Part shown: positions 20,443 to 60,459 of the stretch, in pieces
How positions within the stretch are numbered: position 1 is the stretch's first letter
Layout of the letters: each line of letters opens with the position of its first letter
Assembly: GCA_951406725.2 (NCBI GenBank)
Contig: OX597822.1
Coordinates: 22,320,001 to 22,384,000, forward strand
Direction of reading: 5' to 3'
Source of the DNA: Octopus vulgaris
Lineage: Eukaryota
DNA length: 64,000 nt
The notes under the pieces: model-generated
What the model was told of the DNA's origin: nothing
Database searches by the model: none
What the model saw: the letters and a program-made list of their open reading frames with translations, nothing else
Program-made: the position numbers and the translations under genes

Positions 20443-20931
20443 AATACCACATAAAAAGCATCCAGTACTCTTTATAAGGTGTTTAGCATTAAGAAGGTAT
20501 CAAGCTGTAAAACCATGCTAATGCAGTCAGTAGAGGTTGGTGCAGTCCTCAGGTTTGCAAGCTCCTATCAAACCACCCAGTCAATGCTAGCATGGAAAAT
20601 GGATGTTAAATGATGATGATGATGATGATACATATTCACATATATGCATGCACACATATACTCACATGCCACCCTATCTCTCTTTTACCCATTCTGTCTC
20701 TCTCCTCCACTCACTCACCCTTATAGCAATAAATCTGTTCCTTCATCATACTTAATCCTTTCCTCATCTTGCTTACAATCATCATCCTCTCTCTCATTTT
20801 TCACTCAGTATAATAATTCCTTAGTCTTACCAGTTAAAAGATGACCTCACTATAACTGGTATCACAAAACACAAAGCCCAATAAATTCTGTAAAGTGGAT
20901 AATATTAGGAAGTGTATCCAACTACAGGAAC

Positions 20932-21182
20932 TGTTGTGGTGAGAGTCATTGACACCCTTGGGGGATTTTAAAAATGGACTAGCTGGACTCTTATGAGGAG
21001 TAATGTATTGGTTGAGACAAGGTTTGATAAGAGTCGTTAAGAGATCCGTTGAGTCGATGTATTACTTCCACGCTGAACATGCACCAAACCTGTAAGTTGC
21101 TGTAATGGTAATTGTTTGAATTACTGTGTATTGGTCCCATCACTAGAATGTGGTAGGGGTTTGATTCCCCTGCTCACAATAT
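20932..21182 (+). repeat. 5' LTR (3' boundary uncertain)
   Basis: First ~90 bp align to 25642-25730; followed by the putative PBS TGGATGCAGC at ~21185. Confidence 0.75.
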
Positions 21183-21433
21183 ATTGGATGCAGCTGTGCA
21201 GTGTTAATCAGCAAGAAGAGATGTCTTCTTGGGGTTAAAAAATCGCACTAAAATCAGTTCGAGTGAAAAACAAGGGTGCTAACAAGAGTGCTTAGCACAG
21301 CGGAAGACAAGAATGCTGAGTGCAATGAACAATACTACTGGGGATATAAAAGTGGTAATGAGATATTCGAAGCTTGCATTGGACATTAAAATTTGTTTTT
21401 GATACAAAATAATCAAAGAAAAAAATCATTAAC

Positions 21434-24400
21434 ATGGAAGACCCATTGGCTTGCATGGTGCAGTTGCAACAGTAACAACAGCAATTACAACAACAACTAC
21501 AACAGCAACAAAAACAATATCAACAGTTACTGGAAGTAATGTTGAAGAAGTCTGAAAATACTTCAGGTTCGTTCTCATCAGACGGTGTAGTAAACTCAAT
21601 TGGAGAATTTATTTTATAACCCAGAAGAAGGTACTACTTTTTCTGCATATTTTAGAAAATACGAAGAAATCTTCAAAGAAGAATGTAATATGTGGAATAA
21701 TGAGAAGAAGGTGTGACTACTTTTAAGAAAGTTATCCCCAGCTGAACACAAAAAATACCGTAATTATATTCTGCCAATAAACAAGGTGAGATTTGTTTTG
21801 ATGAATCAATTAATTTATTATCGAGAATTTTCAGTGAAAGAATTTCCCTATTTAATACTTGTTGGCAGTGTTTAAATTTAGTTAAAAAAGATGATGGAGA
21901 TTTCGTCACCTATGCTGAGGTTGTTAACAGAGAGTGTGAAAAATTCAATTTAAATAAATTAACCCCAGATTTTTGTCTAATTTTTGTTCAAGGGTTAACT
22001 GAAAGAAAAGATACTGAAATACGTTCCCATATATTAACAAAATTAGAACAGGAACAAAAATTAACTCTACAGGCAGTAGCTGAAGAATGCCAGAGGATTA
22101 TAAATTTAAGACATGACACAGATAAAATTGAAAAAGATTGCTCTCATATACATGCGTATCAACCTGAAACAGATAAGAAAAAGGAAAAATTAACATCAAG
22201 AACAAATCCATGCCATAGGTGCTGAGGTTCACATTTTAGAAGTAATTGTCGTTTTAAAAATCATAAATGTTTTGAATGTGGAAAAATCAGACCTAAAAGC
22301 TCGTATTGTATAGCGAAACAGAAAAAAAGGTTCAAACAAAAAAGATTCTAGGAAGAATGTATTGTTAAAAAAAATTCTAAGCGAGGCTCAGAAAATAAAA
22401 TTTGTGTTCATAAAAATGAATAATGTGAATATCAAGTTACAATTGGATATGGGCAGTGATATCATGATAATTAATACACATACATGGAGAAAATAGGGAA
22501 ACCAAGATTAAAGGTAACTTCAAAAATTGCACAAGGTGTTTCAGGAAAAAAATTGCATTTTATGGGTGAAATTATAAGTAATGTCACATTTCATGGAAAA
22601 ACCTTCAAATACAACGATTTTTTTGGAACAGTCTGGATGGACCTATTTAACTTATGGGACCTCCCCATAAATATTTTTTGTAAAAATGTGAATGGTTCTT
22701 TCACCAGTACAAATAAGGTGTCAGAGGATTTAAAAAAAGAATTTTAAAAAATTTTTTATGAAGTTTCTTTTGATGAATTGGGTCTTTGCACCAAAACAGA
22801 GGTGAAGTTTCAAGTGAAAGAAAATGCTATATGAGTTTTTAATCCAAATCAAATGGTACCTTTCACAGCATTGAAACAAGTCAACGAAGAGTTGGATAGA
22901 CTTGAAGAGCTTGGCGTTATTGAAAAAATTGATTACACAAAATGGGCATCTCCAACAGATTATGTCAAGGAAAAAAATAATAAAATCCAAGTATGAGCTG
23001 ATTTTTCAATGGGATTAAACGAATGTTTGATGCCATATAATGACCTGTTTCTGATTCTGGAGGAAATTTTCATAAAGTTGCATGGAGGAAAATTTTTTTC
23101 AAAGTTGGACCTATCTGAAGCATATTTGCAGGTGAAAGTCGATGAGGAATGTTCAAAATTATTGACAATAAATACCCATAAAGGGTTGTATAAATTTAAT
23201 CGACTCCTCTTAGGTATAAAGATAGCACCTGGCATTTTCCAGCAAGTTATGGACATTATGTTCGCAGGTTCAGATTTCACTGTAGCTTACCTTGATGACA
23301 TACTCATAAAAAGTGAATCTCGAGGTCAGCATGCTGAGCATGTTAAAAAGGTCTTTAAAAGAATAAAAGATTATGGGTTTAAGCTCAGCGAGGAAAAGTG
23401 TGAATTTTTTATGCCAAGGGCAGATTCTTGATGAAAATGGATGCAGACCAGACCCGTCTAGGGTGAGTGCAATAAAAAATATGCCTCCCCCAACAAACAT
23501 TGGATGCAGCTGTGCAGTGTTAATCAGCAAGAAGAGATGTCTTCTTGGGGTTAAAACATCGCACTAAAATCAGTTCGAGTGAAAAACAAGGGTTAGGGTT
23601 AGGGTTAGGGTTAGGGTTAGCATTTTTTTTTACAAGCATTTTGGGGGCTCGTAAATTACCACCAGATATACATGCCGAATATGCATGATTTAAGAGCACC
23701 CCTGAATAATTTGTTAAAAAAAGACATTACATGGAACTGGTAGGACAAATGCCAGAAAGCTTTTGAAGACATTAAAAAAGGTCTTAATCTTGGAATTGTC
23801 ATTATCACATTTTGACCCGAGTTTAGAAATAGTAGTGGCAGCAGATGCTAGTGAAAGTGGTATTGGAGCTGGGATTTTACACAAATATGAAGATGGTAGC
23901 CTGAAAGCAGTAGCTCATGCTTTGCATTCATTATTGCAGTCAAATAGAAAAAGAGGCATTAGCCATCATATTTGTGGTAAAAAAAAATTTCCATAAATTT
24001 TTACATGGAAGAAGGTTCCATCTGCAGACAGACCACTGCCCATTATTGATGAACTATGGATAAAAAAAGGGTATCCCCACACATACAGCCAACTAATTGC
24101 AGTGCTGGGGAATGATCCTACTGAATCATGACTTCAAAATGGAGTATTTGTCATCAAACAAATTGGGACAAGCAGATGGTTTGTCAAGGTTTCTACCAAA
24201 ATACAATGAACTGCTAGAAGACACAGTGATAGTGGCATTAAAAGCCGAAAATGAAATAAAAAATATATTGTGCAATGTTGTGCATGAATTGCTTGTGACA
24301 TTGGAGGAAATAAAAATTAATGCAGAGATGGACGAGTTTATTATAAAAATGAAAAAATATTGTGATCAGAAGAAACAAATAAAAAATTACATGTGGCTGG

Positions 24401-25539
24401 ATGTAACACAGTTTCAAATTTGTATTCGATATGTGATAATGTGCTTATGTATGCACAGAGGGTTGTAATGCCTACCTCACTACAAGGTCGAATGTTAAAG
24501 GAATTCAAAACTGGACATCCAGGAATTTCTAGGATGAAGTCACTTATGAGGAGTTACGTTTTCTGGCCAAAAATGGATCTAGATACTGAGAAGTTGGTAA
24601 AATCCTGCAGTGGTTCTGCTCTTGCAGTGAAATCACCACCCATAAAATTTCAACCATGGCCCAAGACCGATATTCCATGGTCCAGACTACACATAGACTT
24701 CGCAGGACTGTTAAACTGATCGTATTATCAAAGAGTGGTAGATAGCTTTTCAAAATGGCCAGAAATGTGTTAATGTAGAAAACTGACATCCAGGGAAACA
24801 GGGGAATTTCTACATGAACTTTTTGCTAGGTATGGTGTTCTGGATACCATAGTTTCCGACAACAGTACACAATTCACATGAATTTAAGAATTTTTGCAAG
24901 ATGTATTCCATTGAACATATAACTACTCCTCTGTATCACCCAGGATGAAACGAGCAAGTGGAAAGGTTCATGGATGCATTTAAAGGAGCATTAAAGAAAT
25001 CAGGAAATGAGCTAGTTGATGATACAGCATTGACACAATTCTTGAGGATTTACAGAATAACTCCAAACCCAAATGCTTTTTCAGGCAAGTCACCTGCTGA
25101 ACTAATGTTTGCTCACAAAATAAAGTCAATTTTCGACAAACTGTTACCAGTAAGAAAAACAAACAGGGAAAACATTAAATATATGATAAAGCATTTTAAT
25201 ATTGGTGACAAGGTGTTTTTCAAAATATATAAAAATGGAAGATAAAGTGGGGAAGATGGAGTAGTGACAAAGAGAATAAGAAAAATGACATGTATGATAA
25301 GAGGCAAAAAATGGGAACACAAAAGACATTTAAACCAGCTAAAAAATAGATATACAGAAAAAAAAAGAGATACTCTTGAAAGTGTCCTATGAAATAGATG
25401 TTATTTCACTGTTGTCAATGCACTTGACACCCCAACTACTACAATAAAAGGCTTGCTATCTATTCATGGTTCGAACAACATGAGAAATAGGAAACAAACA
25501 GAATGGCTAGAAGTAGTGCCTAAATGGAAGAAATATTAA
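21434..25539 (+). pseudogene. gag-pol pseudogene
   Basis: Q-rich gag start, two degenerate CCHC knuckles (~22210-22310), protease QLDMGSD (~22440), RT AYLDDILI, RNase H VVAADAS, integrase GHPGISRMK and WSRLHIDFAG; many stops and frameshifts. Confidence 0.92.
23589..23620 (+). repeat. Interstitial telomeric repeat AGGG(TTAGGG)4TTAG
   Basis: Directly visible inside the Gypsy pol region. Confidence 0.95.
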
Positions 25540-25641
25540 ACTTCCTTAGGAGGAAAATCTCAAAAAGGGAAATGCAATGAAAGAAAATAAATAAAAATAA
25601 TAATATTAACTTCCAGCGTAAGTCAATCTCAAAGGGGGAGT

Positions 25642-25849
25642 TGTTGTGGCAAGAGTCATTGACACCCCTGGGAGATTAGAAGAATGGACTAGCAGAACTC
25701 TTATAAAGAGTAGCATATTGGTTGAGACAGTGATCAGTAGGAGTCATTGGGAAGACATTTTGGAGTCTCGTGAAGTATGTTGTGCGAATACATTGATTTT
25801 ACCTCCACGTCGTTAAATTATATATCCAACGTATGCCTAGGATATAAAA
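25642..25849 (+). repeat. 3' LTR
   Basis: Follows the PPT and ends at TSD GGAAC. Confidence 0.8.
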
Positions 25850-26524
25850 GGAACCATACCCAAAATGAGACAGTGGAGCACTAAGTAGTCATCTGATACA
25901 TCAGATCTTATGAAACCATCCAAACCATGTGAACATGGAGAGCAGACATTAATTAATGATGATTATAAAGATGATGATAATGATGACAATGATATATCCT
26001 CATCCTTTTAGATATGCTTTCCACGTTAAATTGTTTTGGAAGGTTTGTCACCACACAAGTCAACTCTTATTGGATTTACTGCCATCAGATGGGTCAGAGA
26101 ACCAGATCACATTTGTTTTATTTTTTGCCCTTCTTGTCACTTACCACTTGACAGAATGTATTTGGTAATTTTATTATGGCACCAACACTAGAGAGGTTGC
26201 CAATTCCTCAAGAAAACAGGTTTTTTGGATTCTCTCTATCTTAATACACTTTCTCTATTTATTCATTAATCACTTTTGCAGAGTATACTGAATGCATTTT
26301 ATCATAGTACCAGTACTGTATATTAACTCATATACACACCCAGGTGTAAAGAGTCTCCACTACTTTGTGACATGAATTTTAGGAGAGAGCAATGATAGAA
26401 GAAGGGCCAGAGTGGGTGGAGGGAGCAAGTGCATAATGGTAGAAACGAGTGGTTAAGGTGAGTAAAAGAGAGTGAATGAAGAGTAATAGTAGAGGGGTGG
26501 ACAATGGCAAGAGATGAGTGATAG

Positions 26525-59140: not shown

Positions 59141-59344
59141 TCTAAGTCTCTCTAAAAGAGAACAGCGGCAGCATTCCCGGAAAATAATAGTTATCGCCAT
59201 ACTAATATGGCATTCTTATAAAAATAAGAAAAAAGCTGTCCGCTTATTAGCTCCATGAGGCCATCGCCTTAAGTTAGCTATTTGATACACAAACTGTATC
59301 CATATAACCTTCGAACAAGGGAGGTCAGTTGCTCCACACTACTT

Positions 59345-59404
59345 GACCGGCAGCTACAGACGCGTTTCGGAGTATTGCCCCTTTTCAATGCAGCGTAGCC
59401 AGCC
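59345..59404 (-). ncRNA. Minimal type-I hammerhead ribozyme
   Basis: Reverse complement of the motif at 59884-59943; loop II is CAAUA instead of AAAUA. Confidence 0.78.
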
Positions 59405-59883
59405 AGTAGGTGTCGCTTCCGACAATCTCTGTTCGATGGTTTTATTTACCTAGTTTCGGTGGAATACATCCACTTGTTTTCAATAATAGAAATATTAAAA
59501 TAACTAAGTCTCTCTAAAAGAGAACAGCGGCAGCGTTCCCGGAAAATAATAGTTATCGCCATACTAATATGGCATTCTTATAAAAATAAGAAAAAAGCTG
59601 TCCGCTTATTAGCTCCATGAGGCCATCGCCTTAAGTTAGCTATTTGATACACAAACTGTATCCATATAACCTTCGAACAAGGGAGGTCAGTCGCTCCACA
59701 CTACTTATAAGAATGCCATATTAGTATGGCGATAACTATTATTTTCCGGGAACGCTGCCGCTGTTCTCTTTTAGAGAGACTTAGTTATTTTAATATTTCT
59801 ATTATTGAAAACAAGTGGATGTATTCCACCGAAACTAGGTAAATAAAACCATCGAACAGAGATTGTCGGAAGCGACACCTACT

Positions 59884-59943
59884 GGCTGGCTACGCTGCAT
59901 TGAAAAGGGGAAATACTCCGAAACGCGTCTGTAGCTGCCGGTC
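59884..59943 (+). ncRNA. Minimal type-I hammerhead ribozyme
   Basis: Stem I GCUGCA/UGUAGC, core UUGAAAA (59900-59906), stem II GGGG-AAAUA-CUCC, GAAA, palindromic CGCG loop, GUC site (predicted cleavage after 59929). Confidence 0.78.
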
Positions 59944-60459
59944 AAGTAGTGTGGAGCGACTGACCTCCCTTGTTCGAAGGTTATATGGATACAGTTTGTG
60001 TATCAAATAGCTAACTTAAGGCGATGGCCTCATGGAGCTAATAAGCGGACAGCTTTTTTCTTATTTTTATAAGAATGCCATATTAGTATGGCGATAACTA
60101 TTATTATCTATATATATATATACATATATATATATGTATATATATATGTATATATATATGTGTATATATATGTGTATATATATATGTGTATATATATATG
60201 TGTATATATATATGTGTATATATATATGTATATATATATGTGTATATATATGTATGTGTATATATATGCATGTATATATATATATGCATGTATATATATA
60301 TGCATGTATATATATATATGTATGAATATATATATGTATATATATGTATGTATATATATATATATGTATGTATATATATATGTATATATATGTATATATA
60401 TGTATGTATATATATATATGTATGTATATACATATGTATATATATACAAACACATATAT

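What the first reader, a model, noticed from the sequence alone, without database searches (positions are those of the whole stretch)
23499..23623. Gypsy pol interrupted by a copy of its own leader followed by TTAGGG repeats
Seen: 23499-23593 duplicates 21183-21277 (the PBS-proximal leader) with about one mismatch, far less diverged than the two LTRs. It stops at ..AACAAGGGT and runs in register into (TTAGGG)4TTAG, after which pol resumes (MPPPTNI | LQAFWGLVNY). CAT flanks both sides. Known: TTAGGG is the molluscan telomere repeat, and telomerase can add repeats at breaks using short telomere-like seeds. Inference: a late double-strand-break repair scar, with local templated copying then telomerase extension primed on AGGGT, then rejoining. 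That the copy starts exactly at the PBS is striking.
Basis: partly seen in the sequence, partly recalled or inferred. Interest (0 to 1): 0.75.

Follow-up and report, generated by a model that had tools for sequence, protein, structure and literature searches.

The report
Three-step telomere-repeat break-repair scar
Inside a dead jumping gene, 128 extra bases (a copy of the element's own end region from 2.3 kb away, about five telomere repeats and a short filler) stand where related organisms have six other bases; this is likely the scar of a repaired chromosome break in which telomerase likely wrote the repeats, a kind of scar known from mammals, here in an unusual three-step form.

Summary
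Real, inherited and specific to this locus. Window 23502-23629 (128 bp) replaces 6 bp in the pol of a decayed Gypsy-type copy. It consists of 92 bp copied from 21186-21277 (94/95 match with the 3-bp ATT overlap), 27 bp of perfect TTAGGG repeat in register with the copy's AGGGT end, and a 9-bp filler. None of 25 other-copy rows has it. Contigs from two studies of the same organism carry insert-specific letters; two other coded organisms bridge the site empty. The donor is this very copy: the insert has all 8 of its rare letters, including the G that makes the AGGGT seed (0 of 26 other copies). Two first-reader details fail: the copied stretch lies inside the 5' LTR, 170 bp before the PBS, and the flanking CAT is no target duplication. 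Most TTAGGG tracts here belong to repeat families, but 54 isolated tracts with the vertebrate in-register signature were also found; only 1 has a similar kb-range copy. Verdict: a variant of the short interstitial telomeric insertions known from mammals. Telomerase is likely, not shown. The scan noted a similar scar in another genome.

The parts
20927..20931 (+). Left target-site duplication GGAAC of the LTR element
   Evidence: Same 5 bases at 25850-25854
20932..21351 (+). 5' LTR of a decayed Gypsy-type element
   Evidence: Start and end motifs shared with the 3' LTR and bounded by the TSD; other copies start at the same TGTTGTGG
21183..21277 (+). Donor stretch, inside the 5' LTR; ends in AGGGT (21273-21277), whose G21275 is private to this copy
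   Evidence: 94/95 identity to the insert; G at 21275 in 0 of 26 other copies
21353..21362 (+). Degenerate PBS-like motif just after the LTR end
   Evidence: Position; other copies read TGGCGACGAG or TGGCAACGAG at the same place; tRNA partner not tested
22997..23431 (+). Reverse transcriptase fragment of pol
   Evidence: Pfam RVT_1 E 5.4e-25
23499..23501 (+). ATT microhomology shared by the pol left flank and the donor start
23502..23593 (+). 92-bp templated copy of the 5' LTR stretch, direct orientation, 2316 bp from its donor
   Evidence: best other family copy 82/95
23589..23620 (+). Perfect 32-nt TTAGGG tract; the first 5 nt overlap the copy's end, 27 nt (23594-23620) are new; ends GGTTAG
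23621..23629 (+). 9-nt filler; with the tract's last AG it repeats the 8-mer at 23635-23642 of the right flank
   Evidence: chance match in 869 of 20000 random 100-nt windows of the element, so weak
23718..23996 (+). RNase H fragment of pol
   Evidence: Pfam RT_RNaseH_2 E 7e-10
24366..24719 (+). Integrase zinc-binding fragment
   Evidence: Pfam Integrase_H2C2 E 1.6e-10
25642..25849 (+). 3' LTR, internally deleted, without the donor stretch; polypurine tract at 25631-25640
25850..25854 (+). Right target-site duplication GGAAC

Best explanation
A 128-bp composite insert replaces 6 bp in the pol of a long-dead Gypsy-type copy and is likely the scar of one germline double-strand break whose left 3' end was likely extended three times before rejoining. 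Step 1 (donor shown, mechanism inferred): the end paired through ATT with the same element's 5' LTR 2.3 kb upstream and copied 92 bases. Step 2 (register shown, enzyme inferred): the new end carried AGGGT, a seed that a private point mutation had made in this copy alone, and telomerase added 27 nt of TTAGGG repeat. Step 3 (weakly supported): the end paired through AG with the right flank, copied a few bases with T-slippage and was joined to it, as in polymerase-theta-type end joining. The scar has no function.
For: Absent from 25 of 25 other-copy rows, 21 of which have 6 bases at the site. Empty orthologous allele: organism B contig bridges 23456-23501 to 23632-23707 with 8 letters between and 0 differences in 122 bases; organism E likewise with 3 differences. 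Insert-specific letters in runs of two studies of organism A. The insert carries all 8 rare letters of this LTR; best other copy 82/95. The 5-nt in-register overlap has a chance of 0.0007. All three pieces read on one strand in the order expected for one growing 3' end (sequence). Tract plus filler occurs once in the genome. A TERT C-terminal exon is present. Same process elsewhere: 54 isolated perfect tracts; of 6 with an empty paralog, 6 show at least 1 and 5 at least 2 in-register bases (P about 6e-6), and a seventh shows 4.
Against: Microhomology at the seed fits polymerase template switching to existing TTAGGG DNA as well as telomerase; the genome has 13,740 (TTAGGG)4 matches, mostly in repeat families, some with 5 perfect units. 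No TTAGGG array at 13 contig starts or 9 contig ends, so the telomere motif is not shown from this assembly. The filler match is weak (4%). The in-register count is biased upward because flank bases help a tract pass the length filter. No contig spans the whole insert and the tool skips the tract; the raw-read run laid 0 reads. Only 1 of 54 other tracts has a kb-range copy, against 0.23 expected (P 0.21). TERT match is one exon at modest scores; a second TERT family search found nothing.
Confidence: 0.6

Rival explanations
1. Same single repair event, but the tract was copied or captured from existing telomeric sequence (a TTAGGG-bearing transposon, a telomere fragment, or reverse-transcribed telomeric RNA) through the AGGGT microhomology, without telomerase.
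For: 13,740 (TTAGGG)4 matches genome-wide against 0 for the reversed pattern; 27 of the first 30 loci are repeat-family or degenerate-array tracts. The end had already switched template once. PMC7215372 (section read) names retrotranscribed telomeric RNA as an alternative.
Against: The tract is perfect and carries no donor flank or variant unit, while family tracts are usually embedded in variant units. Tract plus filler has no second copy. Isolated tracts are short and perfect (median 24 nt).
Confidence: 0.27
2. Two separate events: a templated insertion first, then a later break at its end that received the telomeric tract.
For: Isolated tracts without any templated copy are the rule here (53 of 54).
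Against: Needs a second rare event at exactly the same junction; both must postdate the split from organism B, whose empty allele is identical over 122 flanking bases.
Confidence: 0.05
3. The 92-bp piece was reverse-transcribed from an RNA of this LTR (by a retroelement enzyme or telomerase) rather than copied from DNA.
For: The donor is an LTR with a tRNA-T-loop-like motif just upstream (21158-21168; motif recalled). TERC-ITS loci show RNA-templated pieces beside tracts (PMC8537989, passages).
Against: The piece neither starts nor ends at the PBS or LTR end. A trans-acting RNA would more likely come from another of hundreds of copies, yet the donor is the copy in which the break lies. No expression data.
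Confidence: 0.06
4. Assembly artefact, or a feature encoded by the element family.
For: No laid contig spans the whole insert.
Against: Run X1 has a contig with the insert-specific C at 23557 starting exactly at 23499 at about double depth; run X2 (another study) crosses the left junction by 8 diagnostic bases. No other family copy has it.
Confidence: 0.02

Closest known systems
Short interstitial telomeric sequences (s-ITS) inserted at double-strand breaks in primates, rodents and horse (PMC2246262, passages; PMC7215372, passages and two sections)
   Same: Short perfect TTAGGG tract, at least four units, absent from the orthologous site of relatives, with a small deletion and added sequence, bases in register with the tract, often inside a repeat copy.
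   Different: Here the in-register bases lie on a newly copied 92-bp piece, not on the original break end, and that piece comes from 2.3 kb away in direct orientation. Host is an invertebrate.
Complex horse ITS with flank duplications and inversions (PMC7215372, Fig. 4 legend and Table 5: 3 of 66 loci with inversions, 2 with deletion, addition and duplication)
   Same: Local sequence duplicated beside the tract in one repair event.
   Different: Those duplications are of sequence at the site and mostly inverted; this one is a direct copy from a donor 2.3 kb off whose private mutation supplies the seed.
TERC-ITS (PMC2246262; PMC8537989, passages)
   Same: A templated non-telomeric piece followed by telomeric repeats, inserted in one step.
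   Different: The piece is local LTR DNA with this copy's private letters, not telomerase RNA.
Polymerase-theta-type templated insertions (PMC8034613, passages)
   Same: Short microhomology at junctions, insert copied from nearby DNA, small deletion.
   Different: A telomeric tract sits between two templated steps; polymerase theta involvement is untested here.

Membership tests
Short ITS inserted at a break | [quoted passage not shown] | tested here: met
   32-nt perfect tract at 22.3 Mb of a 119-Mb contig
Short ITS inserted at a break | Empty orthologous or paralogous site, one-step insertion | tested here: met
   Empty in 25 of 25 other-copy rows and in orthologous contigs of organisms B and E; no intermediate allele seen, few samples
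Short ITS inserted at a break | End-joining-type changes at the site (deletion, addition, duplication) | tested here: met
   6 bp lost, 92-bp copy and 9-bp filler added
Short ITS inserted at a break | Bases in register with the tract at the 3' end | tested here: met
   5 nt (AGGGT), chance 0.0007; on the copied piece rather than on the original end
Short ITS inserted at a break | Tract equals the host's telomere motif | tested here: inconclusive
   No terminal arrays at 22 contig ends; TTAGGG cited as the only experimentally determined cephalopod motif (PMC13218726, passage); host taxon taken from an earlier scan note, not tested
Short ITS inserted at a break | Written by telomerase | not testable with these tools
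   TERT exon present; activity at breaks needs experiments
TERC-ITS | Added piece derives from telomerase RNA | tested here: not met
   Piece matches this element's LTR at 94/95 with private letters
Transposon-borne TTAGGG tract | Tract present in many family copies with shared flanks | tested here: not met
   unique to this locus
Gypsy/Ty3-type LTR retrotransposon (host element) | LTRs with TSD, PBS, PPT; RT, RNase H, integrase in that order | tested here: met
   clade not placed on a tree
Reverse-transcription intermediate of the element | Piece bounded by the PBS or an LTR end | tested here: not met
   Starts 170 bp before the PBS-like motif and ends 74 bp before the LTR end

The most novel reading that the evidence does not exclude
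In this animal's germline, telomerase acts as an interchangeable polymerase inside multi-step end joining: it extends freshly synthesised 3' ends between template switches and hands them back for rejoining. This scar, ordered and dated by a private seed mutation, and a mirror-order case at G000:C1:148.018 Mb would be fossils of that pathway, and the genome's many isolated tracts would be the first invertebrate record of telomerase-assisted break repair.
Probability: 0.3. Interest if true: 0.6.

Novelty: new variant of a known kind. Interest (0 to 1): 0.36.

Why it matters
The scar itself is neutral DNA in a dead element. Its value is as a record: because the seed exists only on the copied piece, the order copy, telomeric tract, rejoin can be read directly, which ordinary interstitial tracts do not allow. 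It extends the break-derived short ITS class, described from vertebrates, to an invertebrate genome with at least 54 further candidates. It also suggests a cheap test: the 'random sequence' additions reported beside 12 to 18% of mammalian ITS could be kb-range templated copies. It is also a presence/absence marker between close lineages.

Tried and rejected
PBS start: rejected. CAT as target duplication: rejected. Slippage from the seed: rejected, because a lone AGGGT has no TTA unit to expand (sequence). Outward-facing CCCTAA...TTAGGG pairs looked like telomere-capped fragments but are one palindromic repeat family. Whole-window repeat scan was swamped by microsatellites. Telomere arrays at 13 contig starts and 9 ends: none. 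Pfam Telomerase_RBD search: no match, and its control rang nowhere. Raw-read run X22 laid 0 reads with 3% read: no test. Runs X4, X19 and the right-junction contigs of X1 and X2 extend 34-41 letters into the skipped tract region and cannot be assigned to either allele from the tables; X2's 41 letters would start exactly at the first non-telomeric 31-mer but also fit an empty allele. Organism C (X12) gave no orthologous bridge. Protein atlas look-up returned no result. No tRNA gene in the window. Second survey batch (31 loci, 12 isolated) gave no further kb-range copy.

Full report
Observation. Window 23499-23593 matches 21183-21277 at 94 of 95 bases, 2316 bp apart; the one mismatch is 21241/23557. 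A perfect in-register tract follows, 23589-23620, the only TTAGGGTTAGGG in the window (3 overlapping matches, 0.20 expected). The host is a decayed LTR element with RT, RNase H and integrase fragments in Gypsy order and 72-100 stops per frame over 21431-25400. Its LTRs differ at 22 of the first 107 bases.

The empty site. A search of the own genome (2.8 Gb, 227 contigs) scored 40 of 640 candidates; other copies match query 1-122 and 251-381 with a short gap. Of 25 rows printed besides this locus (24 places), none has the insert; 21 have six bases at the site and 4 have small deletions. So 23502-23629 (128 bp) replaces 6 bp: 92 copied bases, 27 telomeric bases and a 9-base filler. The left junction has a 3-base overlap (ATT). 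The right-hand CAT belongs to the filler and is not a target duplication. The seed-to-tract junction is exact only here (5 matches at up to 2 mismatches, 3 for the control), and tract plus filler occurs once.

The donor. At 8 positions the window's donor has a letter shared by under 35% of 36 other copies; the insert has the donor's letter at all 8, including 21256 (0 of 31) and 21275 (0 of 26). The best other copy matches the insert at 82 of 95. The G at 21275 turns the family's usual AGAGT (18 of 39 rows, 13 unscored; AGGGT only in this copy) into AGGGT, which is in register with the tract. The insert was therefore copied from this very element after it had aged, and the telomere seed exists only on the copied piece.

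The PBS claim. A GGAAC duplication bounds the element at 20932 and 25849; both LTRs end in the same 10-mer, so the 5' LTR is 20932-21351 and the PBS-like motif follows at 21353. All rows run on through the donor stretch, including LTRs that follow a polypurine tract. The donor is thus inside the LTR, and the TGG at its start is a variant carried by 5 of 36 copies.

Reads. Twenty of 24 listed runs hold part of the stretch. In organism A, run X1 has a contig over 23499-23580 with 0 differences, so with the insert's C at 23557, starting exactly at the duplication start, at depth 132 against 61-82 nearby; X1 may be the source sample. Run X2, from another study, has a 61-letter contig over 23449-23509 with 1 difference, crossing the left junction by 8 bases, below the tool's 31-letter bridging standard. 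In organism B one 130-letter contig lies on 23456-23501 and 23632-23707 with 8 letters between and 0 differences; organism E shows the same with 3 differences. At 122 identical bases against 84-89% for paralogs, these are orthologous empty alleles. The joints themselves were dropped by the tool's repeat filter and are read from the piece table. The event is later than the split from B, or still segregating.

Background. (TTAGGG)4 has 13,740 matches, the reversed pattern 0. Of the first 30 loci, 27 are internal parts of repeat families or degenerate arrays and 3 are clean. Three patterns chosen to avoid the families (only the first 100 places listed in 19 and 25) plus two loci gave 98 loci fetched with 5 kb each side; I judged 54 isolated and dropped 44 as family or array tracts. 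Median tract 24 nt. Six had an empty paralog among the loci held: 2, 3, 3, 2, 1 and 2 in-register bases, against chances of 0.25 for one and 0.063 for two (P about 6e-6 for five of six); a seventh has 4. The count is biased upward by the length filter. One of the 54 (L129) has a kb-range copy abutting the tract: 52 bp, 92%, donor 4 kb away, GGTTA overlap, mirror order, found at only those two places. Expected by chance 0.23, so P is 0.21. A TERT C-terminal exon lies at G000:C27:8.3155 Mb (Pfam TERT_C over cut-off; best solved-structure matches all TERT, E 0.006-0.09). No terminal arrays were found at 22 contig ends.

Mechanism. Shown: composition, donor identity, register, uniqueness, lateness. 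Inferred: one break, one 3' end extended by local copying, then telomerase, then a short copy from the right flank (8-base match, 4% by chance), then joining. The tract ends in GGTTAG, where vertebrate telomerase pauses (recalled; template unknown here). The main rival is copying from existing TTAGGG DNA through the same microhomology, which sequence alone cannot exclude. Kinzig et al. (10.1101/2022.10.31.514589, passages) state that end joining of an unprotected telomerase product would give such interstitial insertions.

Comparison. Break-derived short ITS with deletions, additions, duplications and in-register bases are described for primates, rodents and horse (PMC2246262, passages; PMC7215372, passages and two sections), and the horse set includes local duplications beside tracts. 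A review lists TTAGGG for molluscs and ITS for vertebrates and plants (PMC6410037, passages). I found no paper on break-derived ITS in molluscs or on a seed supplied by a kb-range templated copy in searches (listings only; open-licence library). Supplements were not read and could hold such cases among the 'random additions'. The host is called an octopus in an earlier scan note; I did not test this.

Verdict. Real, inherited, neutral; a new variant of a known kind, with an unusually legible order of steps. Interest 0.36.

Noticed in passing
L129 4996-5065 (G000:C1:148.018 Mb), donor at L129 955-1006: 22-nt perfect TTAGGG tract followed by a 52-bp, 92% copy of a site 4 kb upstream, with a 5-nt GGTTA overlap; the piece occurs only at these two places. 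Possible mirror-order second case.
   Followed up: partly
L131, L157, L188 at their central tracts: Isolated tracts with very local repeats on the 3' side: a 62-bp palindrome (L131), an 18-bp repeat 26 bp on (L188), and a tract inside one unit of a 131-bp tandem duplication (L157).
   Followed up: partly
L097, L099, L103, L106, L108-L110, L112, L113, L123, L125: A palindromic repeat family of about 600 bp whose centre holds outward-facing CCCTAA and TTAGGG runs around an AT-rich spacer.
   Followed up: no
L066-L095: At least three other dispersed repeat families carry internal TTAGGG runs; they account for most short telomeric matches in this genome.
   Followed up: partly
window 21151-21175: The LTR holds a tRNA T-arm-like hairpin (GGTTCGATTCCC in most copies) just before the donor stretch; no tRNA gene is called.
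   Followed up: no
L050, L051, L057, L058, L060: Short family members in which the LTR and PBS region run within about 100 bp into the polypurine tract and the next LTR, like non-autonomous miniature elements.
   Followed up: no
L008, L025, L026, L027 at the empty site: Four other copies have small deletions at the same pol position, where a short direct repeat lies; possibly a weak spot.
   Followed up: no
G000:C27:8315518-8315682 (L237): Exon matching the TERT C-terminal domain.
   Followed up: partly
window 59180-60108: 404-bp inverted repeat, 99% complementary, 121-bp spacer.
   Followed up: no
G000:C5:28.44-28.47 Mb, C6:61.48 Mb, C7:59.57 Mb, C14:18.37 Mb: Large degenerate interstitial telomeric arrays; L165 shows a TTAGGG-to-CCCTAA head-to-head switch.
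   Followed up: no
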